In this document: positions 2,475 to 64,000 of the stretch, piece after piece | Position numbering within the stretch: the first letter of the stretch is position 1 | How the letters are laid out: each line of letters begins with the position of its first letter | Origin: Naegleria gruberi | Taxonomy: Eukaryota | Assembly: GCA_000004985.1 (NCBI GenBank) | Contig: GG738924.1 | DNA: 64,000 nucleotides | Strand: one strand, 5' to 3' | Made by a program: the position numbers and the translations under genes | The notes under the pieces: model-generated | Seen by the model: only the letters and a program-made list of their open reading frames with translations | The model's database searches: none | Told to the model about the DNA's origin: nothing

Positions 2475-2826
2475 TTGAAACTCTCCTAATTAGAATGTAT
2501 TCAATAAAAAATGATGATATGTTTGTAAGATAGTTCAATTTATGAATGAATTCAGCATTATAGAGTGTGATTCTTTCTATTAACCTTGTCATAGGTAAGA
2601 TTCAAGCAGAGCCAAACATAGACAGATCTGGCCTTTTCTTCAATATTATCAAAAGGGCGTGCATTTCTAGCATGAGCATCAGCAAGTTCGTAATTTCTCA
2701 AGGTTTTAAATGGTATTGTTAATGTTAAATTTAATGACAATTTTCTTATCTTTGCTTATCGATATTCTCTTTTAAAGCCAAATAAGTGCAATCAAACAAT
2801 TAACATTGCTTAATGATATCTACAAT

Positions 2827-4584: not shown

Positions 4585-4754
4585 TTTTTTTTGTATTTTC
4601 TTGTTTTGTAAAATCTCAATTCTATTAATACAAATTTCTTTATTAAATTCCTAAATTGACAATCAATAAATTGTAATTAGAAATTTCATCATGTTTACTA
4701 CAAGTTCAATATAAAGAAGAGGGAGTGAAAAATAATCAAGTGAGTGCAAATTTT

Positions 4755-38643: not shown

Positions 38644-41600
38644 ATGGATATTAATTCATCTACCAAGGAGGAAACACCTTCAAATGGTGATGGTACAAAG
38701 GATAAACCTAATTGTGCTGATGATAATTCTTCTAACAAGGAAGAAGAAACTATTCGAAATGATACGAAACGAAATTCTTCTTCGTCTACAAAACCAATAA
38801 TTATTCATCAAGATGGAGAATCTAATACACCACCAACAATTGAAAAATCAAATTCTCCTCCTACTACAATAACACATAGTCAATCTTCACCTAATATTTT
38901 CTATCCGAAAGGAAATCAACAAGTTTCTAATAATTTTCGTCATCATCAACAGATAGTTTTCAATACACCATCAACAACAACAATATTTGATGCTTCCCAT
39001 CCGTCTAATTCTATCGAATTAAAAGAAGTTTCGAATAGTAATACTACCGTTGCAATTCCCCTTCATCAAACAAATCAAACTAATCAAACTAATGTCCAAT
39101 CGACAAGAAATGGAAAATATTCATCTCTTGCCGATAATTCCTTCTCCTCTACTAACATGCCTTCACCAAATCATTCAACAACTGTCAGTCCAAATAATAC
39201 GAAAGGTGAGACTAAACAAACTCTCAGACATCGAGCATTTTCGAATGTAAAATTGATTTCACCTAGAAAGAGACTGAAACAATCTCCTTCCACTTCTAGT
39301 TTTCAAACTTCTTCTGATTCTTGGGATGTAAAAGAAAATCGTAAAGAATTGGAACAATTATTCGATTTTAAAAGAAGAGGTTATTCGAAAGGAGGCACCA
39401 AAGATTGTTGCTTTAATTTCTGGACAGCTATTTATAATACACTTTGTCCAGTGAATAGAATTTCGAACATTTTACTCTTCATTGTAATTATTCATACATT
39501 AGTTTGTATTATTGCAACTTCAGTGATTTTATATTCTGCGTAAGTTGATTTTCTATTAGAATGTTTTTGGAATTAATTTCAATTCATTGAACTGTCATCA
39601 TGTATCATACTTTATTTTTGGATTAATTTTCAATATTCTAATTTCTTTTAAAAGTGGAGAACAAAGTGTTCAAGAAATAACTCGACTCAATAATATGAAT
39701 CTAGTTCAAGAAATGGTTCAATTTTTGGATGTTGCAACCAAATCGAGTACAGAATTATCCATGCTCTTTTCAGTTCAATCGAAATATTACAATGATACGA
39801 AAGGAAATGGAAGTTTTGTCGAGCCAATCACTCGATTCTCAACAGTTGTTGCTCCAAAATTGTATACCTATTCAAACTCCTTGTCTATGGTTTATTATGG
39901 AAATGATAATGGTGATTTTGCATTTGCTGAGAGGTCTAGCACTGGTCCATATTTGTACCTTTCTCAGAACATTTTTCAGGATCAATTTAGTGAACTGTTC
40001 AAGAATAAGACATTCCCTGCTTCGAATAATATTTATGTGTTTCTTACGAATGATTATTTTGAGCCCTATCTTCAAAAGAGTAATACAGTATTTAGGATTT
40101 TGTACAATTCAACATATGATCCGAGAGTGAGACCGTGGTACACTGCCACTGAATCATTGGAAAAGGGAAAACCAGTTTGGAGTAATGTATTTGTGGATGT
40201 GAATGGAAATTTAAGTATTGCTGCCAGTTTAGTTTTGAATAATTTGAATAGTATCAAACCCTCCTTCAAGGAAGTGATTGGTGTTCATGTGATTTTCAAA
40301 AAAATTCAAACCTACCTGTTAGGACTCTATTCCTATACGAATAATTTGATGATTTTGATGGAGAATAATGGAAATTTACTCACTTCCAATGAAGATAGCT
40401 TTCCACTCACTTATTCCAACTTGTCGAGAGTGAACATATCCTCTTTTACCTCTGCCACTAAGTTTTCAAAGGAGGAGAAATCATTCTGGGGATTGAGCAA
40501 TGAAAAGCTAGATCTCATTGAAAAGATTTCCAATGTAATGGTTTCTAACAATTTACTAGATAAGAGATTTAATGGAACTGTTCCGTGCACTTCTGAAACT
40601 TTTCAAGCAACACAGGTTGCAGACATTCCAGATCAATTCTGTATTCTGAATCGATTTGTAGCCATCAAGCAGTATAACACATCAACTTCTTTTGTGAGTG
40701 TGAGTCGTTTGATTGATGCATGTGGCATGGATTTCTATTTTATAGTGAGCAGAACGTATTACTCATTCGCTGATGTATTGGTTGACCATTATGTTGGTCT
40801 ATTGGTTGTTCTTGTAGTTACTGTTTTGATTGGTACACTGGCTGTACTGGCTCTCACATCATGCATCTCTTATTCACTCTTCTTTGTCTCTAGAAAATTG
40901 TATTACATTTCCAAGTTAAGACAAGGGGACAAACCAAAGCAAAGTTTAGCTTACAAGGCACAACGAGCCATCAATATGATATTCTATGAGGTTCACACTT
41001 TACAAAAATGTTTGGATAGTGTAGAAAGAGCCAACTCGAGTTTTATCAAGTACATTCCAAGAAGTGTTGTCAAGTTTATTGTGGAAGGTTCATCAAGTGC
41101 CAAACTAGGAATGATTAACGCTGAAATTACAATAGTATTTACAGATTTAGCCAATTTTACAAATATCAGTGAGTCATTGTCAATTCACAATTTGCTTTTA
41201 GTTATTTCCAGATATTTTGAAGTTGTCACGTCAAATGTTCAAGAATGTGGAGGAATAATTGACAAATATATTGGAGACGGTTGCATGGCATTGTTCAATA
41301 CTCCCTATCAACCAGTCACTCATCATGCAGAACATGCTTGTAAGGCTGCAATCAAAATTGTCAAGGGATTGAAAAAACTAAACAAGGAAATGGAAGAAAT
41401 TTACAAGATGAAACTTCCAACAGAAATTAGTGCACGAGTTGGTGTTAATACTGGCAGCGCACTGATTGGAAATATTGGAACTCATGATAGATTGAACTTT
41501 ACTGCTGTTGGCGATTGTGTAAATGTTTCAAGTCGTTTGGAATCTCTCAATAGAATGTATGGAACTAAAATATTGATTGGTGAAGGAAGTGTTTCCACCT

Positions 41601-42577
41601 TCAAAGGAATTGACAAGCTCAGAGGAGAAACAAAGGACCATTTTTCAACCATGCTCGATCAAAGAGAATTTTCTCTCTCTGATCTCTCACAAAAAATGAT
41701 GAATTTGGTAGAATTTCAAGTAGCCACTCCAAAGACACACGAGAGTGTCGCTGCTCAGGCATCTGCTGATTTGGGAAAGGAAATGAGCTTTAGCTCTTCT
41801 TCCAATAATTTGAAAGCCACATCAACTTCATCCTCTCAGGACACTTCTCTGCCGCAAGTTGTGACCTACTTTATCGATACCATTTGCTTGAAAGGTAAAA
41901 ATCAACCTGTTCCAGTATTTGCAGTTCAATGTGATAGAAAATTAGCGACATCTGAACAAATTTACATTGAAAAAATGTTGGATCTGGTTCGTAGAGAGCT
42001 ATTGGAAGAGAAACGATTGAAAGATGTCATTCATTTATTGCGGAGTTTGATGCTTTTCTTTGAGGAGAATCAATTGACCGATTCACCAGTATTTAGAGAA
42101 CACAACACTGATCATTATGAGTTTAAATTTGGAGAGGAAATTCATACACCTATTTCTAGCATCAATGGAGAAAAGACCGAGGAGGAAATTTCTACCAATG
42201 TTGAAGGAGATCCCTATCCAGTCATTTACAAGGCCATTTCGAAACTAAAGGAAAGATTGGAACTTACCTTAATGGAACACGAAGCCAAGAAGAGAAAAGT
42301 CCAAATCAACAAGAAACGTAGTTTACTAACAGCACTCTCTATTGATACTCGATCCAAATCTGATCCACTCATTCATCCAATACTTCCAATTATTCCAGAT
42401 TTTTCAACAACTTCACTTTTGGAAGAAAACAACAATATTGAAACTGTGGAGAACTCTGAATCAACACCAACCATGGCCAAATATGAATATTATCGACAAA
42501 TGGCCTTGATGGAAAATGAAAATAGAAGAAGCTCAATGAAATTGGACGATTTTGCTTTGGTATTGCATGAGAAATAA
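38644..42577 (+). CDS. Receptor-type class III nucleotidyl (adenylyl/guanylyl) cyclase. It has an N-terminal S/T-rich region, a TM segment, a ~400-aa extracytoplasmic sensor-like domain, a second TM segment, a CYCc catalytic domain and a C-terminal extension. Exon1 is 38644..39539, the intron 39540..39654 (GTAAGT..AAAAG, 115 nt) and exon2 39655..42577.
   Basis: Splicing joins ..TSVILYSA to GEQSVQEITRL.. in frame. The cyclase core matches class III enzymes (ITIVFTDLANFTNISE..GGIIDKYIGDGCMALFN..ARVGVNTGSALIGNIGTHDRLNFTAVGDCVNVSSRLES). TM helices are LLFIVIIHTLVCIIATSVILY and LLVVLVVTVLIGTLAVLALTSCISYSLFF. The track splits the gene into 38641..39543 and 39587..42577. Confidence 0.82.
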
Positions 42578-49870: not shown

Positions 49871-51757
49871 TTAATCTTGTAAGATTTTGTTGGCCTTTCT
49901 CCAATTTTCAACAATGATCCTCACTGATTTGTTACTAGATTTCAATCTTTCGAATAGATCGGTCATGTTATTGAGACATGCAACTCGAACAATGTCAAAT
50001 AATGTACTGGCTATGAGTGAATCATCATTCACACTCAGAATTTCATGTTCAATTCTCAGATAAATTTGGTCAATGTTGGCAATATTCAATTCTAATGGAG
50101 ATCCTTCTTTCAGGTAGGTTTTCAATATTTTCATTGCCACCAGTTTCTTATTCTTTCGTTTGGGGGATTTTCTGAAATTTTCAATATCTCTATATGCTAA
50201 AACATCTTCATTACAATAACTCCTTGTCGCAAAATCCAATAACAATGCAAATGTCTTCCTATTTTTCAAAAATAATTCAAGTTCTGATTGAGCATACTCA
50301 GCTTGATGATTATCATTACGAATGGCATAAATGACAGGAAGAATGACTGAAATAATTATTTCCAATAATGAATAGGTCAGTAGAGTAAATCCAAATGGAA
50401 CGAAATAATCTGTCAAGAATCTGATAATCTCAATTTGTCCACTAATTATATAAGCAAGTGATAAAGCCACTTGAATAAATACCAAAACAAAAGCTTCAGT
50501 CTTAATTGACCAAGTATCTCTATCAACAAAGAAGAGAATGATCAAAAAGCTCACTTCTATCACAATGTAGAGTGCTGCTTCTGCTCCCAGCAATATAACA
50601 GTATTTGAGGTTGTAACACATCCACTATTAAATGCAAATGGACTCACATTCCACAAGAATATTCTCTTTCCACTATTACTATACGAAAGTTCATCAATTC
50701 CTCCCAATAAAGCCCAAATAGATAAGTGAATAATGAATGAAATTGTATAAGTGATTGCAATAAACTTGTAGCTCACCAAATATGAAAATATTTTGAACTT
50801 TTTGTCAGAGAAAATTGCAGAAGTGTTGTCAATGTCAGAAGAAGTGACCCACGTTTTTTGATCTTGTTCATCATGGACATCTTCTCCAGTTTCTGGAGTA
50901 ACCCGTGTTGTTGTAATCTGTTCTGAAGTTTGTGATGCATCGTTTGGATTTTCTTGTGATATATTTGAAATGGTACTCGAGTTATCAAATGTTTTTGGTG
51001 TCAATAATTCTGGTTGACTTGTCTCTGATAATTCCGTAGAAGATCCATGTTGTATAGATGCTAATGGAAGAATGGTAATACCTTTCAATTTGTCATCCTC
51101 TTGAACTTGTTGATCCACATTTTGTTCCTTTTTCACATTGGTCAATTGTTGTGGTTTTTCACTTTTCGTCTGAAACATTTGTGCCTTCTTCTTATTGAGT
51201 AAATACATGAAATAAATCCTCAAACATCGAAATACAGTTGGCAGACACAAACTAGGAATAATGATGAAAAACGAAAAAGTGTACAAGAAACATGGAAATA
51301 TTTTCCTCGAAATTGTAAATCGTAGACATGTAATGACCACAAAAGCCAAACTAGCTGATATTGTCAGTAGCATGTAAACTGGATTCCTAGCTTTGATGTG
51401 TCCACTCTTTCTCTTCCAAATAACTCCAACAGTTCCAAAAAGTGCCAACGTCAAATAGAGTGTCAAGAAGATGGATGCGATGATTGGTGTAAAGATGCTG
51501 TCTGGGCAAATATTATTTACCACTGTTGCATTGTATCCTTCACGACTCAAGTCTCCTAGATTGAACAATCTTTCGTCACATATTGAATAATTTGTTGTTG
51601 AGGTATTGTTGTTGGAAAGTTGTTGTTGTTGAATAGAATAAATTGTTGTTGCTATTGGATAACGATAATGAAAAGATTCTTGAATAAATGATGAAAGAAG
51701 GGTAAATATTCGAAATTGGGTTTCATTATTTTGACCTGCATGATGCAGCTGGTACAT
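49871..51757 (-). CDS. Seven-transmembrane receptor fused to a C-terminal RGS domain (7TM-RGS, AtRGS1-like architecture), copy 1 of a tandem pair
   Basis: 628-aa ORF with ATG at 51757. It has an N-terminal Cys-containing ectodomain (SICDERLFNLGDLSREGYNATVVNNICPDS), seven hydrophobic helices with a long Ser-rich third loop and a C-terminal RGS domain (KNRKTFALLLDFATRSYCNEDVLAYRDIENFRK..ILKTYLKEGSPLELNIANID..LFDIVRVACLNNMTDLFERL). Confidence 0.8.
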   Translation of the reverse strand: MYQLHHAGQNNETQFRIFTLLSSFIQESFHYRYPIATTIYSIQQQQLSNNNTSTTNYSICDERLFNLGDLSREGYNATVVNNICPDSIFTPIIASIFLTLYLTLALFGTVGVIWKRKSGHIKARNPVYMLLTISASLAFVVITCLRFTISRKIFPCFLYTFSFFIIIPSLCLPTVFRCLRIYFMYLLNKKKAQMFQTKSEKPQQLTNVKKEQNVDQQVQEDDKLKGITILPLASIQHGSSTELSETSQPELLTPKTFDNSSTISNISQENPNDASQTSEQITTTRVTPETGEDVHDEQDQKTWVTSSDIDNTSAIFSDKKFKIFSYLVSYKFIAITYTISFIIHLSIWALLGGIDELSYSNSGKRIFLWNVSPFAFNSGCVTTSNTVILLGAEAALYIVIEVSFLIILFFVDRDTWSIKTEAFVLVFIQVALSLAYIISGQIEIIRFLTDYFVPFGFTLLTYSLLEIIISVILPVIYAIRNDNHQAEYAQSELELFLKNRKTFALLLDFATRSYCNEDVLAYRDIENFRKSPKRKNKKLVAMKILKTYLKEGSPLELNIANIDQIYLRIEHEILSVNDDSLIASTLFDIVRVACLNNMTDLFERLKSSNKSVRIIVENWRKANKILQD

Positions 51758-51825: not shown

Positions 51826-53757
51826 CTACAGGTTTAAACTGTTTCTACGAAAGTTAATAACCATTTCTTGTATGTTCTTGTCTGTGGCTTTCAATCTTTC
51901 AAATACATCAACCATGTTATTTAGACAGAGAACTCTAATATCATCAAACAAGGTATTGGGAATCAGAGAAGGGTTTGTTGCTTTTTGGAGAATTGATTCA
52001 ATTTCTTCATACTTTTTGGAAAGGTTTGACATGTTGAGCTCGAGAGAAGATCCACTTTTAAGATAGGTTTTCAATATTTTCGTGGCAACCTTCTTCTTGT
52101 GCTTTTTGGAAATCTTTCTAAACTTTTCAATGTCTCTGAAGGCAAGAACATCTTCAGGGCAGTAGCATCTTCTGGAAAATTCTAAAAGTAAGGCAAATGT
52201 TTTTCTATTTTTGAGAACCGTCTCAATTTCAGTTTGGGAATATCCTCCATTCTCGGTATTTAATTGTTTTTGAAACTTTCTGTCATCAATAATTGCATAA
52301 ATTACAGGTAACAATACAGCAATAAATATTTCAAATACTGAATAGGTCAGTAGAGTAAATCCAAACGGAACGAAATAATCTGTCAAAAATCTAATCACCT
52401 CAATTTGACCACTAACTAAGAATGCAATAGCTGTTATGATTTGAATCACAATTAATACAAAGGTATCTCTTTTGATATGAAAAGCATCTCTATCAGCAAA
52501 GAATAATGGAATAAAGAATGCAATCTCGATAATAATGTAGATGGCTGCCTCTGCTGCCAACATAAAGACAGTGTTAGTGTTAGTAACACAGCCTGTAGTT
52601 GCTGCAAACATGCTGATATTCCACAAGAATACTCTTTTTCCTCCATTACTAACAACAAGTTCATCGGCTCCTCCAAATATTGCCCAAATAATAAGATGCA
52701 AAATGAAGGCAACAATATACGATGAAGCAATGAGTTTGTAACTCACCAAGAAGGAATAAACCTTAAATTTCCTATCATTATAAACTGATTCTGTATAGTC
52801 CACATCAGTTGAGGTAACCCATGAACGGGAATCATCTTCAGTGTCTGAATCTACCTCACTTTTTCGTTGTTCTGATGAAACATGACTTGATGTATTGTTG
52901 TCAGTCAATGGGGTATCGGGAATGTGTGGAATAACAACACCATTATTATTGGTAGTAGTAGTAATTTCTGGAAAGGTGAATTTTTCCACACTAAAAGGTT
53001 CAACTACATCTTGATGTTCTGTTAAAGTGGTGGGAATTAATTCAAAATTGACCACTCTACTTGATGTGAGAGCTTCCCTAGACGTCGATGGACTATTGTC
53101 TTGTTGGTGACTCTGTGAATCTCTTGCTGTTGTGATGTGAGATACCACCAATGAGAGGGAAGAATTATTGTTGAGTGCAGATGATGAAGCTGAATGTTTT
53201 GATGATTCAAAAGTCATTGCTTTTCTTATATTCAACTTGTACATGAAAAAGATACGAATGAATCGGAATACTGCTGGAAGACACATTGCAGGCACTGTGA
53301 TAAAGTATGAAATAGTGTATAAAAAGCAGGGGAATATCTTTCTTCCTATAATAAATCGCAAACAAGTTGTTACGACAAAGTACAAAGTTGCCGAGATGGT
53401 CAAAATCATATGAAGTGGATTACGAGCCTTGATGTGTCCACTGTTTCTCTTCCACAACACTCCAATAATAGCCAAAGTAACCAAACACAAATAAACAAAT
53501 AGAAAAACTGCTGAAACTATTGGAGTGAAGATACTATCTGGACAAATGTTATTGACCATCGTGGCATTATATCCTTCTCGGCTCAGTTCTCCCAATTTAA
53601 AGAGTCTCTCATCACAAATAGATGATGTTGAATTACTATTTGATGAGGTATTTGATGATGCAACCAATAAAGAAGAAATAATTGTTGGCACTTGACTGCT
53701 CACGCTACTGAAGAAATATTGCAATACTTGTTGTAGTGGAATGAGTTGTGCAACCAT
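51826..53757 (-). CDS. Seven-transmembrane receptor fused to a C-terminal RGS domain (7TM-RGS), copy 2 of a tandem pair
   Basis: The track ORF 51826..53820 starts at an alternative TTG. The first ATG is at 53757 (MVAQLIPLQQ..). Domain order and many blocks are shared with the gene at 49871..51757 (SICDERLFKLGELSREGYNATMVNNICPDSIFTP; TM helices; KNRKTFALLLEFSRRCYCPEDVLAFRDIEKFRK). Confidence 0.8.
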   Translation of the reverse strand: MVAQLIPLQQVLQYFFSSVSSQVPTIISSLLVASSNTSSNSNSTSSICDERLFKLGELSREGYNATMVNNICPDSIFTPIVSAVFLFVYLCLVTLAIIGVLWKRNSGHIKARNPLHMILTISATLYFVVTTCLRFIIGRKIFPCFLYTISYFITVPAMCLPAVFRFIRIFFMYKLNIRKAMTFESSKHSASSSALNNNSSLSLVVSHITTARDSQSHQQDNSPSTSREALTSSRVVNFELIPTTLTEHQDVVEPFSVEKFTFPEITTTTNNNGVVIPHIPDTPLTDNNTSSHVSSEQRKSEVDSDTEDDSRSWVTSTDVDYTESVYNDRKFKVYSFLVSYKLIASSYIVAFILHLIIWAIFGGADELVVSNGGKRVFLWNISMFAATTGCVTNTNTVFMLAAEAAIYIIIEIAFFIPLFFADRDAFHIKRDTFVLIVIQIITAIAFLVSGQIEVIRFLTDYFVPFGFTLLTYSVFEIFIAVLLPVIYAIIDDRKFQKQLNTENGGYSQTEIETVLKNRKTFALLLEFSRRCYCPEDVLAFRDIEKFRKISKKHKKKVATKILKTYLKSGSSLELNMSNLSKKYEEIESILQKATNPSLIPNTLFDDIRVLCLNNMVDVFERLKATDKNIQEMVINFRRNSLNL

Positions 53758-54347
53758 TTTCTTTGTTGTGATCTTCAGCAACAGTGTTGACAACTTTGAT
53801 GGGAAAGGAAACTTTTCCAAGCCTCCGAAACAAAACGGGTTGATGTTATGCCTTACATATCATCTCGACTCGATTTTTTGGTTATGAAAATTTTTTGTGA
53901 TGTGTTGATTGGTATTGTATAATCTTTTTTAGGACCAAAGCTGTAATAATAATTTTTAAAAAATATTTGAAAAAGATATTGTTAATAATAATATCGGGTT
54001 GATGTTGTTAGTGTTTGAGTGGGTTAACAAGTTGAAACACCTGAAGGAATTTCAGATCAGCACGATGAGATTATTTAAATAGTAGTGGTTTTTAAATTTT
54101 TATTGTTGGACAAGTGTTCGTTGAGGAATGACCATACTCAATTCATCAATTACACGAATAACAATTTGAATATCGCCAAACAATCACTGTGTTTTACTCT
54201 TTACTTTGTGTGCTCAACAATAAAAAGAGTACTAGCCTTGAAAGCTTGTTTAGATTCTTACTGCCTTGATGTGTAACATGTCAGCCAATCTAAGGAAGTA
54301 AACGAAATATAAAAAAATATGAAACTCGTCATCACCGTTACATCAAC

Positions 54348-55889
54348 ATGAGTAATAATAGCACATCACAACAGAAGAAACGAAAATTCGAAACCAACCG
54401 ATATATGGTTGTTTTTGAGGAGTTGCTGAGAGCTCCAGAAGCAAGAGAAAATTTCAGAGGTTTTCTCAAACTGGTTCATTGTGAGGAACCTCTTCAATTG
54501 ATCGATGCCATTGATTCATACAGAACCGAACATAAAAAGCTAATAGATAATATTGATGACAGTGCTTCCGATTTTGATTTTCAAGGTTTTAAAAAGATAC
54601 TACTCCTTGTGAATCAACTTGAAAATATTGTAAATACCTTTGGATTGGAAGATTCTATTGAAAAGTTTTCACATTATTATATGGGTGCTTGGACTCGTAC
54701 ACTGAATCTCTACCATCTTGTAACACTAAAATTGGAATCCATTTCCAACTCTAACAAAACTAACAACAAGCAAATATTTGAAATTTTAGAAATTTTAAAT
54801 CCTTCCAATATTTTGGAAGATGTAGAGACAAAGGCAATTCTTGATTTGAAATATGATGAATTTCCAAGGTATGCCAGGTCGAATACGCTTCACTTGTTTC
54901 TTGTACGAAAGGGTGAAGAATATACGAGAAGAATTGCTATTAATATTGCTAACGATTTTTATGTAGATATTAGATTTAAACCTAAAGATTTTGAATCTCA
55001 ATTAATGACTGATAAGGATGTTTATTTTGCTTATACATTGAGTGAAGATACACCTGATTGGAAAGAATTAACTTGTAGCGAGAAACCTAACTTTTTACAG
55101 ACCTTTGTTTCAAAAACAGTTTATTCAATAGGACCAGACGAAATGAAAGGAATGAGATTATTTAAATTGGTAATGCATCTGCCCTATGCAGTTGAAGATG
55201 TTTGGGCTACGTATTGTGATATGAATACACGATTCAAACTTGATCACACTCTCATGAAAGATTTCAAATTGCTGAGATATATTCCACCACATCAGAAGAA
55301 ATCAAGTGAGCAACGAGATTCCATTTCATTTTATGAGATATTTGATGAGAGAGATAATCGATACACTGTGGATAAACCACCACTTGCCATTCAGATTGGA
55401 GCTCTGGGTATTGAAATGCACATTCCACTATTGAAACACAGAGACTTGCCACATACAATGACTTCACTTTATGATCCCTCGGTGAATTGTTACATGAACA
55501 TTGGTCACACGTGCAAGATTGAGGAATCACTCAGGCGTGCACCTACAGATAGAGTCAAGTCTGAAATTTTGTTCAATTACATGTTCTTTGGTACTGGAGA
55601 AAAATCAACAAGATTTATTCACACAGTGTATACAGACCTACATGTTCCTTTGGATTCTGATTTTGTTTTGAGTAAGATTTGGAAGAATAGAAGCAAACAA
55701 TTACAGGCCTCATTTGAAGAATTACTAGCAGAAAAAACCAAGGGAGGAACCATTTCCATTGACAAATCTATGGTGAATGATCATTTCAAATATTTTACAG
55801 CTGTGGAAGACAATGCCAAATTGAATAGAAAGTGGTACAGAGATTATTTGAGAAAGAAAAATCAAATGCAAATTGAATATGGTGATTGA
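54348..55889 (+). CDS. RGS-domain / START-like domain protein
   Basis: 513-aa ORF with ATG at 54348. It has an RGS-like N-terminal region (YMVVFEELLRAPEARENFRGFLKLVHCEEPLQLIDAIDSYR..KAILDLKYDEFPRYARSN) and a C-terminal START/Bet v1-like region. It resembles the RGS/START parts of the genes at 18551 and 31863. Confidence 0.65.
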   Translation: MSNNSTSQQKKRKFETNRYMVVFEELLRAPEARENFRGFLKLVHCEEPLQLIDAIDSYRTEHKKLIDNIDDSASDFDFQGFKKILLLVNQLENIVNTFGLEDSIEKFSHYYMGAWTRTLNLYHLVTLKLESISNSNKTNNKQIFEILEILNPSNILEDVETKAILDLKYDEFPRYARSNTLHLFLVRKGEEYTRRIAINIANDFYVDIRFKPKDFESQLMTDKDVYFAYTLSEDTPDWKELTCSEKPNFLQTFVSKTVYSIGPDEMKGMRLFKLVMHLPYAVEDVWATYCDMNTRFKLDHTLMKDFKLLRYIPPHQKKSSEQRDSISFYEIFDERDNRYTVDKPPLAIQIGALGIEMHIPLLKHRDLPHTMTSLYDPSVNCYMNIGHTCKIEESLRRAPTDRVKSEILFNYMFFGTGEKSTRFIHTVYTDLHVPLDSDFVLSKIWKNRSKQLQASFEELLAEKTKGGTISIDKSMVNDHFKYFTAVEDNAKLNRKWYRDYLRKKNQMQIEYGD

Positions 55890-57323: not shown

Positions 57324-58310
57324 TTTTTTTATTGTTGGAATTTTGTTTGGTTGTTGGTTGGCTTTTTATTCGAAAGTAATAGCACTCGATTTGGTTAATT
57401 TAAAAAGGAATACAATGACAGAAAGAGAATGATTGAGATAAATTTGGAGAGTTTAAATAAAAACGAGCAAATTTCATGTGTTTGAGATGAAAAGAATTGC
57501 AAATTCCAGAAGAAAATTACAAAAACACCAACATGTAATTCTAAAAATAAATTTCCAAATATTATACTGCCTTGCATGATGTTCGAAACAAAAACTGTTG
57601 TGTGAAGGAAAACTTTAGCGAAATCAGATATTCAAGAGTTACGAAATGACCTTGGGTCATGAATTGCCAGTTTTCTTTTTCATGAAGTTCAAGTTTTGAT
57701 CGCTCCCGAATATTTTAGAGTGTTATTGGCTTGTCAACATTTTGAACTTTACCCCTAAAAAAACCGAAATTCACCCTCAAAGTTGGGTGCAACTTTGAGA
57801 AAGTTTTGTTAATAATTCAGGGCTCGAAAAAAACAAAAAGTTAAGGGTATTTATATTTTACACAGTAATTGGTATCTAGTTTTTAGACCGTAAAAAAAGT
57901 AAATTTATTAAATTTGAACAAGTCTAAAATCAACTTGTCATTATTTGAAATCATGTAACAAAGCAACAGCTAAAGATTGGCCATCCACTCAAATAATCAA
58001 AGCTCAACTTGTTAATTACAGAAACATCAATATGACAATGTCATTAATCATCCACTCAAATTATAAATTGAAAGATCCAATTACATCCACTAATTTTACC
58101 ATGGCCATGTTGTTTCCACTTATCCAAATTCAGTGTATTTCCAATCAGATTATTAATTGCAAATAATTGTAGTAACAAAGAGAGAAAATTAATTCCAAAA
58201 TCCATCCCAAACCAGTTTTTGGATATAGGTGAATAAAAAATCGACAAAAAGCCAAATTGAACCAAAAAGCCAAAATCTAAAGCCAAAAATAAGTCAAGAA
58301 ATTTCCACTA

Positions 58311-58378
58311 CTGTGGTTACGCAATGAAGTGCAAGCAATTCTACAATGAAATGCAAGCAATTATTTTTTGAACTGCAA
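58311..58378 (+). repeat. Left 68-bp terminal inverted repeat of the pogo-like transposon
   Basis: Perfect reverse-complement match to 61452..61519. It contains internal direct sub-repeats GCAAGCAATT. Confidence 0.88.
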
Positions 58379-58552
58379 CGAATAATTTAATGAATTGAAA
58401 GTTTCTTGAACCACAATTCTTAAAATAGATCAAAGAGAAGTCACACTGTAAGATCAAGCTGTAGTTCTGCTTGTTTCGAATATTGATAATGAATTTGTTT
58501 ATTATATAAGATATTTTGTATTGTTATTAAGATGATTGATCACTCTTCATGT

Positions 58553-61315
58553 TCATTGAATTTTCTTTCCGAAAATTGAATCCTCCCATGACTCATTAAA
58601 TAATTCATCTAATTCTTCGTCATAATCGCCAAGCTCAATTTTAGAGCTCTTCTTGGGTTCAGATTGAAAACCTTCTGATTCCGAAAGTGGGCTTTGTGGT
58701 TCAAATTCTACTACATGTAAATGTTTCAATCTAGCAACAAGTATAGCTCTGTAATTTGAAATAGAAAATGGTTTGGTCATAATATCGACGGCATCAGATA
58801 GTGAAAATCCTGCTGAAAGAAAATCCATTAGTAATACACAATAATCACCACAATGATTTCCATCCACTTGAATTTTTTTTTGTAATGTTTTTCGAACAGT
58901 CTTTGGTTTTACAATAAATGATGGCAACATTTCAAATAATTCACTAGTCTCTGATTCTATCACTGAAAAATCCTTAGCGAAAGAATCAAAAAGAAACCAA
59001 TCAGTGGATTGACAATCATAGATTAGTAAGTACCAGTGTAATGATCTTGCCACAGGAAAAATTATAAATCCTTTTGATGTAAATTTCATACTCTTTGGTA
59101 AGTTTGTTTCTATGAATTTTTTGGATTGGTTAGTAACTCTTTGAGAGAAATCAGACGGTATGTATTGTAAATATTGTGAGCTGATTTTGGAAAAACAAAT
59201 TCCAAATATATCAAAAGTATTTCCAGGTAAGAATACAGTGTCATCTTTGATAGTCTCCAATGCCTCAGTAGATAAAGTGATTGAACAAGCAATTGTTTCT
59301 GTTGAAAGAACGTACAATTGTAGATTGGCAGCATTTTGTTGGATGTTATGGTTAAATTCTGTTTTGTTTTGTATGTGAAGTATTATTTTAGATATTTGTT
59401 CTACCTGTTTTTGGTCAAAATTTTCTTTCATGGAATCACTATCAATCCAAGGATTGTTTACATCATCTAAGATGGGATCTTGATCTAATTTCTCATCTGT
59501 CTCTACCTTAACTGATGGTGTAGGTAGTTCTACATAGAATTGACCAATACACATAGGATTAAATTCTCTGATATATAAATCATACAAATCATTATTCATT
59601 TTCAGTGAAGCTCTGACATACTTCAAGTATTCCTCTTCTGAATCATAATTCCAAATATCCATTAAACATTTTCTAAAACTATTTACAATCACATCTGGAT
59701 TCATGTTAGAAATAATCTGCTCAAATGCTGCATTTCTTGATTTTCTATCAGAATTAGAATTATTCTTTTTCCAATCAGCTAATTCTCTTTTTGCATATCT
59801 GAAACACATATTATCCAATGGTGATTGATGGTGCCCACCTACAGGAAGTAAAATGTTAATTCTATTATGTTGTTTCAAAATCTTTTGAACTGATTTACAC
59901 TTATGATGAGAGAGATTATCCCATAATAAAATGTCTCCTTCTTTTGAATTAGGAATATAAACTTTTTCAACCCATTGCTCAATATGTTCAATATGAACAC
60001 CAGCAATTTTTTCCTCAACAGTTACCTTATTACCATTAATAGTTGATTTCTTTCCTGGCACTGACTCAACAATAGACACTGGTAATACACCTCCTTCTGC
60101 CGTTACAGCAACTAAAAAAGTATCCTTAATATCATCAGCCAATTGTAAAACAACTGCATCATCGTCCTTGATTGGAGTATTTGTTCTTTCCGTCGCCTTA
60201 GTATTTGTTCCAGTTTCATCAAAAACCACAATTTTACTTCTATCAATGGATTTTAAATTTCTAAACATTATTGCTGCATAGAAGCAATAATAATAGTAGG
60301 TTCTATATAATTGCTCATAAGCTGTTTCAATTCTTTCTCTCTTGGTAATTGTTGTTTTGATCTTCCTTTTATAAAGAAACTTCTTGGAAAATTTGGAAAT
60401 ATAATCTACTGAAGGTGTTTTCTTTAATCCTGCAACTTCCTTCATTATTTCTCCAAGTCTTATATTACTAACTTGTTTTTTCTCACTCCGTTCCTTACGA
60501 GTAATATCAATAACCTGTAAAATTTGGTCTTTCAATAATAATGGAGGTGGGTGACCACGTTCAACCTTTAATGTTAGTTCATTCCTCTTGCATGCCGATA
60601 AATATCTGCTAAATTGTGAAGGTGAGATATTATTTTGTTTAGCAAATTCCTGTTGTGATCCACGGTCGGGTGTTGAATATTGTTCTTTATACTTCTCAAC
60701 AAGTTTAATTTGTTCTTCTCTTGTTTTTTGAACATAACCAACTTTTCTTTTGTTTTTAAACCCTATCAATACTATTTTATCATCAGGATTTTCCTTTTTT
60801 TCTGTCTCCTCCAGGTTTACCAGTTTTGCTTTCTTTGCTTGACTTTCATTGTATGTTTCTTGATTCCGTTCAACAATTAATAGGGCTTTTTTTTTGATGT
60901 TGTCTTCGAATGACTCATCTCTTTCATCCGTCTCTTCCTCAACAGAAGAACAAATTCTAGTTACCAATTTTGCTACCAGAGCATCTTTTCTAAGATTACC
61001 TCCTGTCTCTCCAAATTCACTCTTCAAAAACTCCTTCAAAAACTTGACATTTTTCATTGTCAATTGATCATGGATTGCCTCTTCCACATTCTCAAACTTT
61101 CGTTTTGTTCCTTTTTTTAGCTTCTTTGGTTTTTCTTCTTTTTTCTTGCCTGGTGTTTTTTCATCTTTCTTTTTAATGGGTGTGTTATCTGGTTGATCTT
61201 GTGTACAGGTCCATGAAGGAACTTGAGATACTGAAGGTAGCAAATCTATTAAATTGCTATAGCTGGAGAAGCTTTGTGGTGAAGTGTCATAGCTACTCGA
61301 TTGCTTGTTTGACAT
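58553..61315 (-). CDS. Transposase fusion protein: CENP-B/psq-type HTH domains + pogo DDE_1 transposase (DDD triad) + C-terminal Ulp1-like C48 cysteine protease domain
   Basis: ATG at 61315. HTH region: YSTPDRGSQQEFAKQNNISPSQFSRYLSACKRNELTLKVERG. DDE_1: KIVVFDETG .. ILLWDNLSHHKCKSV..INILLPVGGHHQSPLDNMCFRYAKREL. Ulp1/C48: HWYLLIY..D..QVDGNHCGDYCVLLMDFL (His/Asp/Gln/Cys). Confidence 0.85.
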   Translation of the reverse strand: MSNKQSSSYDTSPQSFSSYSNLIDLLPSVSQVPSWTCTQDQPDNTPIKKKDEKTPGKKKEEKPKKLKKGTKRKFENVEEAIHDQLTMKNVKFLKEFLKSEFGETGGNLRKDALVAKLVTRICSSVEEETDERDESFEDNIKKKALLIVERNQETYNESQAKKAKLVNLEETEKKENPDDKIVLIGFKNKRKVGYVQKTREEQIKLVEKYKEQYSTPDRGSQQEFAKQNNISPSQFSRYLSACKRNELTLKVERGHPPPLLLKDQILQVIDITRKERSEKKQVSNIRLGEIMKEVAGLKKTPSVDYISKFSKKFLYKRKIKTTITKRERIETAYEQLYRTYYYYCFYAAIMFRNLKSIDRSKIVVFDETGTNTKATERTNTPIKDDDAVVLQLADDIKDTFLVAVTAEGGVLPVSIVESVPGKKSTINGNKVTVEEKIAGVHIEHIEQWVEKVYIPNSKEGDILLWDNLSHHKCKSVQKILKQHNRINILLPVGGHHQSPLDNMCFRYAKRELADWKKNNSNSDRKSRNAAFEQIISNMNPDVIVNSFRKCLMDIWNYDSEEEYLKYVRASLKMNNDLYDLYIREFNPMCIGQFYVELPTPSVKVETDEKLDQDPILDDVNNPWIDSDSMKENFDQKQVEQISKIILHIQNKTEFNHNIQQNAANLQLYVLSTETIACSITLSTEALETIKDDTVFLPGNTFDIFGICFSKISSQYLQYIPSDFSQRVTNQSKKFIETNLPKSMKFTSKGFIIFPVARSLHWYLLIYDCQSTDWFLFDSFAKDFSVIESETSELFEMLPSFIVKPKTVRKTLQKKIQVDGNHCGDYCVLLMDFLSAGFSLSDAVDIMTKPFSISNYRAILVARLKHLHVVEFEPQSPLSESEGFQSEPKKSSKIELGDYDEELDELFNESWEDSIFGKKIQ

Positions 61316-61451
61316 TTTATAAATTTATTGCTTCTTCTGCTGATTGGAAGTTTTGATGTGTGTTTTGCAAGTTTCTTGATCAAAGTGGAAATTTATATTT
61401 AGACTTTCTTGCAGTTCGTCAGCAAGTAATTGTACTACATTGTAGAATTGC

Positions 61452-61519
61452 TTGCAGTTCAAAAAATAATTGCTTGCATTTCATTGTAGAATTGCTTGCA
61501 CTTCATTGCGTAACCACAG
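61452..61519 (-). repeat. Right 68-bp terminal inverted repeat of the pogo-like transposon
   Basis: Perfect reverse complement of 58311..58378, and immediately followed by TA. Confidence 0.88.
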
Positions 61520-61521
61520 TA

Positions 61522-62642
61522 AATTAAAATTGTAATATTTATTAACGTCTCTTGTATCGTAAAGACCTGAGAGACGAGGTCTACAACCAGTAAGTTTCGG
61601 TTCAGCGTTTAAGTGTTATGGGTTGACGCTAAGTGGTTGGTTAGACTGAGCCTGCCTGTGGTAGGCAGAGAGGTATTTCCTGTTAATAGTGAAGCTTGCA
61701 TTGGGACGGTTGTACCACACTGAGTTCTTGTAGCAATTTTCCAAATAAATAGCTAGTGCTTTGTAGACTTCTAGGGCCACATTCTTAGGTATTCTTTTGC
61801 GCTTAGACCAGTTAAGCCAGTCATTACGGGAGCAACGACCATCAAATTCTATCCTAAGTTGAGAGGATTCTGAGATATCAGGAGGGAAACGAATCTTGTT
61901 AAGGCTAAATTTCTGGGAGATAGCGTCCCATGTGGCATACAGTTCATCCTTTTCAGGATTGCATTTGGGACAAGTTTGGAATACGTGGGTCCAATCTTCC
62001 TTGACATTACATTTGTCACAAATACTGTCGTTACCTAGTAAAATTGAGTGGTGGAGATTAAAGTAGAGGAGTCTTTGCTGATAATAAGACAAGAGAGAGT
62101 TTCTCCAGAAGGAGAGAGTGCTATTATGCCAATTATAGTCATTGTCTAATTGGCCCAACTTATTAATAATTTTCTTGGATCGCTGAGTTTCAATGATAGC
62201 ATTTCTAAGGTTGGAGACAGGCTTGTGATTGGTACGGTTACACAAGACCCATCCATTATCTGTGGATTTGAAGTAATATTTCAGATCTTTCATTGTAGCG
62301 GCAGCATTTTTCCACAGTGAATCTGTAGTTTCACCCTTGAGCGCCTTATTTATCATGGCTCTTGCGATTTTTTGGGTGATAGGAGAGGTAGAATTGACAA
62401 ACCTACAGACAGATGCCATCCTTTCCACGTGACTTATATCAACTGGAGATGAAAGCCCAAGTCCACCCTGGGATTTATCACCATATATAACGGCTTTAGA
62501 GAGCCTGTTGTCACATCCAATTCTTTTCTTAATAATTCCACTAATTTTGACTTCCAATTTTTCCAATAGTGAAAGTGGAATAGCATCTACGCTTGAGAGG
62601 TATCTAGGTACAGAAAGCACCTTAGATAATATTACGTTCCTC
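61522..62642 (-). mobile_element. 3' fragment of a non-LTR (LINE) retrotransposon ORF2 (RT C-terminal thumb region + Cys-rich C-terminal domain), truncated by the assembly gap
   Basis: ORF 61616..62620 (minus) has no start. It continues into the N-run and contains SQGGLGL..VERMASVCRF (LINE RT C-terminal motif) and a CCHC-like cluster (ICDKCNVKEDWTHVFQTCPKC). A 3' UTR-like tail at 61522..61615 abuts the transposon TSD. Confidence 0.6.
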
Positions 62643-64000
62643 ANNNNNNNNNNNNNNNNNNNNNNNNNNNNNNNNNNNNNNNNNNNNNNNNNNNNNNNNN
62701 NNNNNNNNNNNNNNNNNNNNNNNNNNNNNNNNNNNNNNNNNNNNNNNNNNNNNNNNNNNNNNNNNNNNNNNNNNNNNNNNNNNNNNNNNNNNNNNNNNNN
62801 NNNNNNNNNNNNNNNNNNNNNNNNNNNNNNNNNNNNNNNNNNNNNNNNNNNNNNNNNNNNNNNNNNNNNNNNNNNNNNNNNNNNNNNNNNNNNNNNNNNN
62901 NNNNNNNNNNNNNNNNNNNNNNNNNNNNNNNNNNNNNNNNNNNNNNNNNNNNNNNNNNNNNNNNNNNNNNNNNNNNNNNNNNNNNNNNNNNNNNNNNNNN
63001 NNNNNNNNNNNNNNNNNNNNNNNNNNNNNNNNNNNNNNNNNNNNNNNNNNNNNNNNNNNNNNNNNNNNNNNNNNNNNNNNNNNNNNNNNNNNNNNNNNNN
63101 NNNNNNNNNNNNNNNNNNNNNNNNNNNNNNNNNNNNNNNNNNNNNNNNNNNNNNNNNNNNNNNNNNNNNNNNNNNNNNNNNNNNNNNNNNNNNNNNNNNN
63201 NNNNNNNNNNNNNNNNNNNNNNNNNNNNNNNNNNNNNNNNNNNNNNNNNNNNNNNNNNNNNNNNNNNNNNNNNNNNNNNNNNNNNNNNNNNNNNNNNNNN
63301 NNNNNNNNNNNNNNNNNNNNNNNNNNNNNNNNNNNNNNNNNNNNNNNNNNNNNNNNNNNNNNNNNNNNNNNNNNNNNNNNNNNNNNNNNNNNNNNNNNNN
63401 NNNNNNNNNNNNNNNNNNNNNNNNNNNNNNNNNNNNNNNNNNNNNNNNNNNNNNNNNNNNNNNNNNNNNNNNNNNNNNNNNNNNNNNNNNNNNNNNNNNN
63501 NNNNNNNNNNNNNNNNNNNNNNNNNNNNNNNNNNNNNNNNNNNNNNNNNNNNNNNNNNNNNNNNNNNNNNNNNNNNNNNNNNNNNNNNNNNNNNNNNNNN
63601 NNNNNNNNNNNNNNNNNNNNNNNNNNNNNNNNNNNNNNNNNNNNNNNNNNNNNNNNNNNNNNNNNNNNNNNNNNNNNNNNNNNNNNNNNNNNNNNNNNNN
63701 NNNNNNNNNNNNNNNNNNNNNNNNNNNNNNNNNNNNNNNNNNNNNNNNNNNNNNNNNNNNNNNNNNNNNNNNNNNNNNNNNNNNNNNNNNNNNNNNNNNN
63801 NNNNNNNNNNNNNNNNNNNNNNNNNNNNNNNNNNNNNNNNNNNNNNNNNNNNNNNNNNNNNNNNNNNNNNNNNNNNNNNNNNNNNNNNNNNNNNNNNNNN
63901 NNNNNNNNNNNNNNNNNNNNNNNNNNNNNNNNNNNNNNNNNNNNNNNNNNNNNNNNNNNNNNNNNNNNNNNNNNNNNNNNNNNNNNNNNNNNNNNNNNNN
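62643..64000. other. Assembly gap (1358 N)
   Basis: Run of n characters to the end of the window, directly adjacent to the repeat elements. Confidence 0.99.

What the first reader, a model, noticed from the sequence alone, without database searches (positions are those of the whole stretch)
58309..61521. Apparently active pogo-like DNA transposon encoding an HTH-DDE transposase fused to a Ulp1 (SUMO protease-like) domain
The 68-bp TIRs are 100% identical, TA duplications flank both ends, and the 920-aa ORF has no disruptions. These are all signs of very recent transposition. The ORF carries CENP-B-type HTH motifs, a complete pogo DDE_1 catalytic core (D..D..D spacing: FDETG / LWDNLSHH / PLDNMCF), and a C-terminal C48 peptidase fold with the His-Asp-Gln-Cys constellation. 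ULP capture is documented for plant Mutator-like elements, but it is unusual on a pogo/Tc1-mariner backbone.
Basis: partly seen in the sequence, partly recalled or inferred. Interest (0 to 1): 0.75.

Follow-up and report, generated by a model that had tools for sequence, protein, structure and literature searches.

The report
Naegleria TA-targeting transposon with ULP-fused transposase
This is an intact, probably still mobile cut-and-paste DNA transposon of the amoeboflagellate Naegleria gruberi; its Tc1/mariner/pogo-group transposase carries a SUMO-protease-like (ULP) domain at its end, a combination known from other transposon superfamilies but not found described for this one.

Summary
Window 58311-61519 is a 3,209-bp element with 68-bp perfect terminal inverted repeats. 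TA flanks both ends, and one uninterrupted 920-aa ORF lies on the minus strand. The ORF is identical to Naegleria gruberi XP_002669668.1 ("predicted protein").

The transposase part (aa ~195-585) is a two-HTH DNA-binding region plus an RNase-H-fold DDD domain (D366/D466/D501, DD34D). It belongs to the IS630-Tc1-mariner group: NCBIfam IS630 E 1.4e-14, and Foldseek to Mos1/SETMAR/Sleeping Beauty.

"Pogo" specifically is not established. This protein shows no DDE_1 or CENP-B/Tc5 HTH hit, and its relatives score about equally on DDE_1 and DDE_3.

A second 920-aa copy (4 aa different) exists in the same assembly. A 98%-identical fragment occurs in a metagenome. Diverged ULP-bearing relatives also exist.

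Related transposases elsewhere carry a USP deubiquitinase domain instead, which suggests Ub/Ubl deconjugation is the selected function.

This is a new variant of a known kind, of moderate interest.

The parts
58309..58310 (.). TA, putative target-site duplication (left)
   Evidence: chance of TA on both flanks about 0.004
58311..58378 (+). Terminal inverted repeat at the 3' end of the element relative to the ORF; 68 bp, starts CTGTGGTTACGC
   Evidence: 68/68 identical to the reverse complement of 61452-61519
58322..58365 (+). Two tandem 22-bp subrepeats (CAATGAAGTGCAAGCAATTCTA) inside the TIR; candidate transposase-binding sites (inferred)
   Evidence: D5; 5 matches in the window, all in the two ends, 0.09 expected
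58379..58552 (-). 3' untranslated part of the element
   Evidence: 58461-58552 is also conserved in the metagenome copy L005
58553..61315 (-). 920-aa transposase-ULP fusion ORF. Single exon, identical to N. gruberi XP_002669668.1 / EFC36924.1
61097..61174 (-). Lys/Arg-rich stretch, aa 48-73 (KKKDEKTPGKKKEEKPKKLKKGTKRK); NLS-like (inferred)
   Evidence: disordered in the model
60356..60733 (-). Bipartite helix-turn-helix DNA-binding region, aa ~195-320 (two three-helix bundles)
   Evidence: AF2 pLDDT 85-95. The NCBIfam IS630 match starts at aa 220. Foldseek aligns ~400 columns to full-length Mos1
59561..60253 (-). DDD (RNase H-fold) catalytic domain, aa ~355-585. D366 = 60218-60220, D466 = 59918-59920, D501 = 59813-59815
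   Evidence: The triad aligns to Mos1 D156/D249/D284. DDD is kept in 41 of 44 relatives
58718..59248 (-). ULP / CE-clan C48-like cysteine protease domain, aa ~690-866. H760 = 59036-59038, D777, Q816, C822 = 58850-58852
61316..61451 (-). 5' untranslated/promoter-side part of the element, with further degenerate copies of the subrepeat
   Evidence: D1, D2
61452..61519 (-). Terminal inverted repeat at the 5' end relative to the ORF. 68 bp, containing subrepeats at 61446-61463, 61468-61485 and 61490-61507
61520..61521 (.). TA, putative target-site duplication (right)

Best explanation
Window 58311-61519 is an autonomous, structurally intact cut-and-paste DNA transposon of Naegleria gruberi. [quoted passage not shown]

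Shown:
- 68-bp perfect TIRs, TA flanks and one 920-aa ORF.
- The ORF has a two-HTH DNA-binding region and an RNase-H-fold DDD domain (DD34D) whose three aspartates align with the Mos1 triad.
- It ends in a C-terminal domain with the ULP/SENP (CE-clan, C48) fold and His-Asp-Gln-Cys in the canonical order and spacing.
- The fusion is old and retained. It recurs in relatives only 37-48% identical, and no cellular ULP is close enough to be found by sequence.

Inferred mechanism:
- The N-terminal basic stretch imports the protein into the nucleus.
- The HTH pair binds the 22-bp repeats within each TIR.
- A transposase dimer excises the element and inserts it at TA, as in Mos1 or Sleeping Beauty.
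- The tethered ULP domain works as an isopeptidase on SUMO, NEDD8 or ubiquitin conjugates at the donor or target site. Candidate substrates are the transposase itself, repair factors or SUMO-dependent silencing factors, and the effect would favour transposition.
- An isopeptidase role is preferred over polyprotein self-cleavage because sister transposases carry a USP/UCH deubiquitinase domain in the same position. USP shares with ULP only the activity of removing Ub/Ubl.

Placement inside the ITm group (pogo, mariner or a separate protist lineage) is unresolved.
For: Anatomy:
- TIRs, TA flanks and the ORF are as described.

Host and copies:
- The ORF equals XP_002669668.1.
- A second 920-aa N. 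gruberi protein, XP_002668708.1, lies on another scaffold and differs at 4 residues.
- Metagenome contig L005 is 98.3% identical over 762 columns. Its differences are 2 synonymous changes, 1 non-synonymous change, 1 UTR change and 2 in-frame indels.

Transposase:
- NCBIfam IS630: E 1.4e-14, 54 bits, aa 220-492.
- Pfam DDE_3: 27.9 bits.
- The AF2 model has pLDDT 85-98 over aa 195-585.
- Foldseek: Mos1 transpososome 7e-9; SETMAR and Sleeping Beauty catalytic domains at TM 0.63-0.71.
- The family profile hits Mos1 at 1e-5, with the triad aligned.
- DDD is conserved in 41 of 44 relatives.

ULP domain:
- Pfam C48 scores are 19.8 bits for the query, 29.6 for P0021 and 21.4 for P0004, against a cut-off of 20.7.
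- Profile vs PDB: SENP8 8.9e-7, then XopD, ChlaDub2, poxvirus I7 and SENP7/2.
- The Foldseek top 50 are all CE clan.
- H, Q and C are invariant in the 4-sequence alignment.

Retention of the fusion:
- P0002 spans the DDE C-terminal part plus ULP at 37% identity.
- N. gruberi P0035 keeps collinear HTH, DDE and ULP remnants.

USP-fused relatives:
- P0011, P0018, P0077 and L004.
Against: - No empty site, excision footprint, insertion polymorphism or transcript could be examined, so activity is inferred from intactness alone.
- The second copy sits on a 16-kb scaffold and could be an allelic haplotig rather than a second locus.
- The query itself falls just below Pfam's curated cut-offs for both DDE_3 and Peptidase_C48.
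- The ULP model has only moderate confidence (pLDDT 59, pTM 0.63) and was built from a 4-sequence alignment.
- The catalytic Asp is Ser in P0002 and P0004. The first diGly-clamp Trp is Phe in the query. Protease activity is therefore not guaranteed.
- Nothing here tests the substrate or the role of the ULP domain.
Confidence: 0.8

Rival explanations
1. It is a true member of the pogo superfamily, for example a Fot-like protist lineage, that picked up a ULP domain.
For: - It has a DDD rather than a DDE triad.
- The DNxxxH and SPLDNxFF motifs resemble the pogo QPLD type.
- Relatives are mostly DD35D, the signature given for Passer and Fot/Fot-like in PMC7386202.
- 55 of 68 relatives hit DDE_1, and 9 of the 10 scanned individually exceed its cut-off.
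- The closest homologue, P0002, hits DDE_1 and not DDE_3.
Against: - The query has no DDE_1 hit even at E<=10, whereas DDE_3 scores 27.9 bits.
- None of the pogo DNA-binding Pfam domains is found in the query, and only 2 of 68 relatives have HTH_Tnp_Tc5.
- HTH_32/33/23/28 (IS630/Tc1-type) domains are commoner among relatives.
- DDE_3 also hits 55 of 68 relatives, with similar scores.
- No phylogeny with reference pogo and Tc1/mariner sequences could be built.
Confidence: 0.4
2. The ULP domain is catalytically dead, or not a Ubl isopeptidase. It would instead serve as a SUMO/Ubl-binding or chromatin-targeting module, or as a cis-acting protease that cleaves the fusion protein itself, as adenain or poxvirus I7 cleave viral precursors.
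For: - Asp777 is Ser in P0002 and P0004, and the clamp Trp is Phe in the query.
- CE-clan viral processing proteases (I7, pS273R, adenain) are among the structural neighbours.
- A long disordered linker (aa 587-631 and 668-727) separates the domains.
Against: - His, Gln and Cys are invariant, and Asp is present in the query and in P0021.
- P0002 comes from a frameshifted, TIR-less copy, so its substitutions may reflect decay.
- The nearest structural and sequence neighbours are SENP/Ulp/NEDP1 rather than the viral proteases.
- Sister lineages carry a USP domain at the same position, which points to deconjugation rather than self-processing.
Confidence: 0.2
3. The element is no longer mobile. 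It would be a recently immobilised or domesticated copy, and the second 'copy' is only the other haplotype of the same locus.
For: - Only two full-length proteins are in the assembly, one of them on a 16-kb scaffold.
- There is only one copy in this 64-kb window.
- No TIR match was found in the metagenome collection.
- HTH-ULP proteins without a DDE domain exist (P0021), so parts of the protein may have host-like uses.
Against: - Perfect 68-bp TIRs with TA flanks around the gene are not expected for a domesticated gene.
- The full DDD triad is intact.
- The metagenome fragment L005 joins the element to unrelated sequence at a different point and carries indels, so it is another copy or variant.
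- The element lies in a TE-rich, gap-adjacent region, 96 bp from a retroelement-like ORF.
Confidence: 0.2

Closest known systems
Tc1/mariner transposons with solved transposases (Mos1, Hsmar1/SETMAR, Sleeping Beauty) and bacterial IS630
   Same: - TA flanks and TIRs with internal repeated binding-site-like motifs.
- A paired HTH region plus an RNase-H-fold catalytic domain.
- The DDD triad aligns to Mos1 D156/D249/D284, with the same DD34D spacing as mariner.
   Different: - Only ~12-13% identity to Mos1.
- It lacks the mariner YSPDLAPSDY-type third motif; the sequence reads SPLDNMCF.
- At 920 aa the protein is roughly 2.5 times longer, with an N-terminal ~190-aa extension and a C-terminal ULP domain.
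pogo superfamily (Tigger, pogoR, Passer, Fot/Fot-like, Lemi, Mover; PMC7386202)
   Same: - TA TSD and a DDD triad with spacing inside the pogo range.
- Relatives are mostly DD35D and pass the DDE_1 cut-off.
   Different: - The query has no DDE_1 hit.
- It has none of the CENP-B_N/HTH_Tnp_Tc5/HTH_psq/BrkDBD DNA-binding domains that characterise most pogo families (Mover has none detectable).
- The termini read CTGTGG rather than the CAGT common in pogo.
- No ULP-bearing pogo was found in the papers searched.
ULP/C48-carrying transposons of other superfamilies: KI-MULEs and other Mutator elements, Ginger1, CryptonF/S of oomycetes. Zisupton is cited from memory only.
   Same: A Ulp1-like C48 domain is encoded by, and often fused to the C-terminus of, the transposase. 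Ginger1 alternatively carries an OTU domain, which parallels the ULP/USP alternation seen here (PMC2836005; PMC3212892).
   Different: - The transposase backbones are unrelated: MULE, retroviral-integrase-like or tyrosine recombinase.
- TSDs differ.
- Here the backbone is ITm with TA targeting.
Cellular ULP/SENP/NEDP1 proteases (yeast Ulp1 1EUV, SENP1-8)
   Same: - His-Asp-Gln-Cys in the same order. The H-D spacing of 17 and the Q-C spacing of 6 are counted; their equality to Ulp1 is recalled from memory.
- The HW motif.
   Different: - Only 13-17% identity.
- No cellular ULP appeared among the 68 hits in 1.84 billion representatives.
- The first clamp Trp is Phe.
- The domain is tethered to a transposase.

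Membership tests
IS630-Tc1-mariner (ITm) group of DDD/E transposons | Terminal inverted repeats flanked by a TA target-site duplication | tested here: met
   68-bp perfect TIRs with TA on both sides. No empty site was available to prove duplication.
IS630-Tc1-mariner (ITm) group of DDD/E transposons | RNase-H-fold catalytic domain with a DDD/E triad homologous to Mos1/SB/IS630 | tested here: met
   NCBIfam IS630 E 1.4e-14. Foldseek Mos1 7e-9, with SETMAR/SB at TM 0.63-0.71. The triad aligns to Mos1.
IS630-Tc1-mariner (ITm) group of DDD/E transposons | N-terminal bipartite HTH DNA-binding domain | tested here: met
   Two three-helix bundles, aa 199-243 and 262-313, with pLDDT >85. The IS630 model match starts at aa 220. 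Full-length Mos1 aligns over ~400 columns.
pogo superfamily | Pfam DDE_1 (PF03184) catalytic domain | tested here: not met
   The query has no DDE_1 hit at E<=10; only DDE_3 appears, at 27.9 bits. 9 of 10 relatives scanned individually do pass DDE_1, with DDE_3 scores similar.
pogo superfamily | CENP-B_N / HTH_Tnp_Tc5 / HTH_psq / HTH_ABP1_N / BrkDBD DNA-binding domain (PMC7386202) | tested here: not met
   None was found in the query. HTH_Tnp_Tc5 is in 2 of 68 relatives, whereas HTH_32/33/23/28 are in 3-8 each. The same paper notes that Mover pogo elements also lack a detectable DBD.
pogo superfamily | DDD triad with spacing in the family range (DD29-42D; DD35D for Fot-like/Passer) | tested here: met
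   The query is DD34D and most relatives are DD35D. This feature is not exclusive, since mariner is also DD34D.
pogo superfamily | Placement inside the pogo clade in a transposase phylogeny | not tested
   No reference sequences could be obtained. The supplements were truncated or OCR-damaged, and the afdb50 library was unavailable.
mariner family (DD34D) of Tc1/mariner | DD34D signature together with the mariner-type motifs around the third Asp (YSPDLAPSDY, as seen in the Mos1 alignment) | tested here: not met
   The spacing matches, but the motif is SPLDNMCF against Mos1 SPDLAPSDYHLF. Identity to Mos1 is ~12%.
Peptidase C48 (Ulp1/SENP), clan CE | Score at or above Pfam PF02902 gathering cut-off (20.7 bits) | tested here: inconclusive
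   The query scores 19.8 bits (E 7.6e-4). Among homologues, P0021 scores 29.6 and P0004 21.4 (both above the cut-off) and P0002 18.6.
Peptidase C48 (Ulp1/SENP), clan CE | Catalytic His, Asp, Cys plus oxyanion Gln in canonical order | tested here: met
   H760, D777, Q816 and C822 are present. They align to the SENP8 HW / DS / Q..C motifs. Asp is Ser in P0002 and P0004.
Peptidase C48 (Ulp1/SENP), clan CE | ULP fold | tested here: met
   [not shown]
Peptidase C48 (Ulp1/SENP), clan CE | Isopeptidase/endopeptidase activity on SUMO, NEDD8 or ubiquitin | not testable with these tools
   Needs biochemistry.
Active autonomous transposon | Several near-identical copies at different loci, insertion polymorphism or empty sites, and transcription | tested here: inconclusive
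   There are two 920-aa proteins at 99.6% identity on different scaffolds, plus a 98.3%-identical metagenome fragment. No genomic DNA of the other copies' flanks was available. No hits were found in the metagenome scans.

The most novel reading that the evidence does not exclude
A protist lineage of IS630-Tc1-mariner transposases has repeatedly recruited ubiquitin-like-protein proteases: ULP/C48 in Naegleria, and USP/C19 in a separate clade known only from metagenome contigs. The reason would be that efficient transposition, or escape from host silencing, needs local removal of SUMO/ubiquitin marks. The protease would then be a transposon-encoded anti-silencing or repair-licensing activity tethered to the transpososome.
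Probability: 0.25. Interest if true: 0.75.

Novelty: new variant of a known kind. Interest (0 to 1): 0.5.

Why it matters
- Ub/Ubl-protease domains (ULP, OTU, USP) turn up on unrelated transposase backbones: Mutator, Ginger1, Crypton, Helitron, and now an ITm element. No one has shown what they do.
- This copy is small (3.2 kb), has a single ORF and looks intact. It belongs to the best understood cut-and-paste family and sits in a culturable organism.
- That makes it a convenient system to test whether deSUMOylation or deubiquitylation is needed for transposition or for evading silencing.
- It also flags a poorly sampled protist branch of the ITm group that current Pfam models barely recognise.

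Tried and rejected
1. Whole-protein Pfam scan: only sub-threshold DDE_3. Scanning pieces was needed to see C48.
2. The word-indexed homologue searches found almost nothing beyond the query's own cluster. The exhaustive representative search was what produced relatives.
3. DNA of the N. gruberi copies is not on record, so flanks of the second copy, empty sites and dN/dS could not be examined.
4. Metagenome scans found nothing, either with the 24-nt terminus or with the protein.
5. The afdb50 fold library was unavailable, so pogo-derived AlphaFold models could not be compared.
6. I tried to obtain reference pogo and Tc1 sequences from the supplements of PMC7386202. The tables are cut and the alignments OCR-corrupted, so no reference phylogeny was built.
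7. The bootstrap NJ tree timed out. Only an unsupported identity-distance NJ tree was obtained.
8. L001, the contig of the closest homologue, has no TIRs and a frameshift, so it gives no TSD information.
9. A SAP-like N-terminal motif (aa ~85-120) was considered but has no HMM support in the query. It is not claimed.
10. A Polinton/virus-type maturation protease was considered for the ULP domain. I ranked it low because SENP/Ulp are the nearest neighbours and the sister lineages carry USP.


Full report
**1. What is in the sequence**

The window is Naegleria gruberi. The 920-aa ORF at 58553-61315 (minus strand) is identical to EFC36924.1/XP_002669668.1, a "predicted protein" on a 196,593-bp scaffold.

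The element proper is 58311-61519: 3,209 bp, 32% G+C. Its ends are 68/68 complementary and diverge from position 69 onward. The 30-nt terminus occurs only at these two places in the window, with 0 expected in shuffles. TA lies directly outside both ends. With a TA frequency of 0.062, two chance TAs have a probability of about 0.004. No longer direct repeat is present.

Each end holds tandem 22-bp subrepeats with the core AATGAAGTGCAAGCAATT. Five matches occur in the window, all in the two ends, against 0.09 expected. This is the usual arrangement of transposase-binding sites in Tc1/pogo-type ends, but the binding role is an inference.

The ORF leaves a 204-nt leader and a 242-nt trailer inside the element.

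**2. The transposase part**

Pfam on the whole protein gives only DDE_3 at 23.5 bits. On an excised piece it gives 27.9 bits against a cut-off of 28.6. No DDE_1, HTH_Tnp_Tc5 or CENP-B_N hit appears even at E<=10.

The NCBIfam IS630-family model matches aa 220-492 at E 1.4e-14 (54 bits; equivalog cut-off 100). The match covers both the DNA-binding part and the catalytic core.

An AlphaFold2 model built on 68 sequences is confident over aa 195-585 (pLDDT 85-98). It shows two three-helix bundles followed by an alpha/beta RNase-H-like domain. Foldseek against the PDB returns the Mos1 transpososome (E 7e-9, ~400 aligned columns). It also returns the SETMAR and Sleeping Beauty catalytic domains at TM 0.63-0.71.

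A 26-sequence profile of the catalytic core hits Mos1 at 1e-5. The printed alignment puts the family's mDEtG, DnLssH and SPlDnsfF motifs on Mos1 D156, D249 and D284.

In the query these residues are D366, D466 and D501. There are 34 residues between the last two, so the signature is DD34D. Most relatives are DD35D, and the DDD triad is intact in 41 of 44.

**3. Pogo or not**

Among the 68 relatives found by the exhaustive search, DDE_1 and DDE_3 each hit 55. In ten relatives scanned one by one, the two scores are close. DDE_1 is higher in seven and DDE_3 in three. The closest homologue, P0002, hits DDE_1 only, while the query hits DDE_3 only.

HTH families typical of IS630/Tc1 (HTH_32, 33, 23, 28) are commoner among relatives than HTH_Tnp_Tc5, which appears in 2 of 68.

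According to PMC7386202, pogo is recognised by DDE_1, CENP-B-type or related DNA-binding domains and a DDD triad, with DD35D typical of Fot-like and Passer elements.

What is shown here is membership of the ITm group. The DDD triad, the spacing and the QPLD-like third motif lean towards pogo. The HMM evidence for this particular protein does not. I could not build a reference phylogeny.

**4. The C-terminal domain**

On an excised C-terminal piece, Pfam Peptidase_C48 scores 19.8 bits (E 7.6e-4; cut-off 20.7). The homologous domains of P0021 (29.6 bits) and P0004 (21.4 bits) pass the cut-off.

A four-sequence profile searched against PDB sequences returns mostly CE-clan proteases among its 24 hits, and all of the significant ones are CE-clan. 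They include SENP8/NEDP1 (8.9e-7), XopD, ChlaDub2, poxvirus I7, SENP7 and SENP2. The catalytic motifs are aligned.

A model of aa 660-880 has moderate confidence (pLDDT 59, pTM 0.63), but its fold is unambiguous:
- Foldseek's top 50 hits are all ULP/SENP/CE-clan proteins, with SENP5 at 1.3e-7 and Ulp1 1EUV at 6e-6.

His760 (HWYLL), Asp777 (LFDSF), Gln816 and Cys822 (NHCGDY) are present. The His-Asp spacing is 17 and the Gln-Cys spacing is 6; I recall these to be the same as in yeast Ulp1.

His, Gln and Cys are invariant in the four homologues. Asp is Ser in P0002 and P0004. The first diGly-clamp Trp is Phe in the query.

No cellular ULP was among the 68 hits in 1.84 billion representatives. 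The domain is therefore old and divergent, not a recent capture of a host gene.

**5. Copies and relatives**

- A second 920-aa N. gruberi protein (EFC35964.1/XP_002668708.1, on a 16,246-bp scaffold) differs at four residues. It is either a second insertion or the other haplotype.
- An 832-bp metagenome contig (L005) is 98.3% identical to window 58461-59219. Its differences are two synonymous changes, one non-synonymous change, one UTR change and two in-frame indels. Its first 70 nt are unrelated to the element.
- A diverged sister family exists in N. gruberi itself. P0035 (EFC41813.1) keeps collinear pieces of the HTH, DDE and ULP core, and P0027 matches the N-terminal 290 aa.
- P0002 and P0003 lie on one metagenome contig and together form a frameshifted homologue at 37-41% identity. 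P0002 spans the DDE end and the ULP domain.

The fusion therefore predates these divergences and has been kept.

**6. A wider pattern**

Several more distant relatives of the same transposase carry a USP/UCH (C19) deubiquitinase domain where the Naegleria protein has ULP:
- P0011, 973 aa, UCH E 2e-9.
- P0077, 1,053 aa, UCH 82 bits.
- P0018.
- L004, where UCH is in the next ORF.

The contig of P0011 (L003) is bounded by inverted repeats of at least 81 bp that contain internal repeats.

In an unsupported NJ tree, the USP-bearing proteins form one clade away from the Naegleria branch. This suggests separate acquisitions.

The literature records Ulp1 domains in Mutator, Ginger1 (alternating with OTU) and Crypton elements, and a C19 peptidase on a Trichomonas transposase (PMC2836005; PMC3212892). 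I found no report of a ULP on a Tc1/mariner/pogo backbone in the searchable library. Repbase could not be consulted.

**7. Mechanism**

Shown: the anatomy of a TA-targeting ITm transposon with an intact DDD transposase and a ULP-fold domain with catalytic residues.

Inferred:
- Nuclear import through the basic stretch at aa 48-73.
- HTH binding to the 22-bp repeats.
- Dimer-mediated excision and TA insertion, as in Mos1.
- Removal by the tethered ULP domain of SUMO, NEDD8 or ubiquitin from the transposase, from repair factors or from silencing factors.

The ULP/USP alternation in sister lineages, and the ULP/OTU alternation in Ginger1, are the main argument that Ub/Ubl deconjugation is the selected activity, rather than self-processing.

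**8. Verdict**

This is a new variant of a known kind, of moderate interest.

Noticed in passing
L003 1-4762 (P0011 at 1677-4598); L004 6805-9966; proteins P0018, P0077: Distant relatives of this transposase carry a USP/UCH (C19) deubiquitinase domain in place of ULP. L003 is bounded by inverted repeats of at least 81 bp with internal TTCATTTGCAGCAATCAA repeats. It also encodes an unknown 491-aa ORF (184-1659) with no Pfam hit.
   Followed up: partly
L002 2713-3846 (P0021): A 377-aa protein with an N-terminal HTH region like the transposase's and a ULP domain (C48 29.6 bits), but no DDE domain. It is either an internal-deletion derivative or a domesticated HTH-ULP gene.
   Followed up: partly
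N. gruberi proteins P0035 (EFC41813.1) and P0027 (EFC35326.1), not in the window: Remnants of a diverged sister family in the same genome. P0035 has collinear HTH, DDE and ULP-core fragments, and P0027 matches the N-terminal ~290 aa at 29% identity.
   Followed up: partly
L005 1-832, matching window 58461-59219: A metagenome contig 98.3% identical to the 3' part of the element, with two in-frame indels. Its first 70 nt do not match the element, so it is a truncated or rearranged copy or a chimeric assembly.
   Followed up: yes
window 61616-62620 (-), running into the N gap 62644-64000: A 334-aa ORF with a Cys/His-rich motif (CDKCNVKEDWTHVFQTCPKC) and no Pfam hit. It looks like the tail of a non-LTR retrotransposon ORF2. 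The DNA transposon ends 96 bp from its stop codon, so the region may be a TE cluster next to an assembly gap.
   Followed up: no
window 31863-35165 (-), 49871-51757 (-), 51826-53820 (-), 54348-55889 (+): Several large ORFs with RGS (regulator of G-protein signalling) domains, three of them adjacent: a local paralogue cluster. An adenylate/guanylate cyclase ORF lies at 39587-42577, and a P-type cation ATPase at 21066-24317.
   Followed up: no
window ORF aa ~78-125 (about 60941-61084): Two predicted helices separated by a loop (KNVKFLKEFLKSEFGETGGNLRKDALVAKLVTRI) resemble a SAP motif, and a similar stretch is in P0027. There is no HMM support in the query. One of the 68 relatives has a real SAP hit (E 2e-12).
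   Followed up: partly
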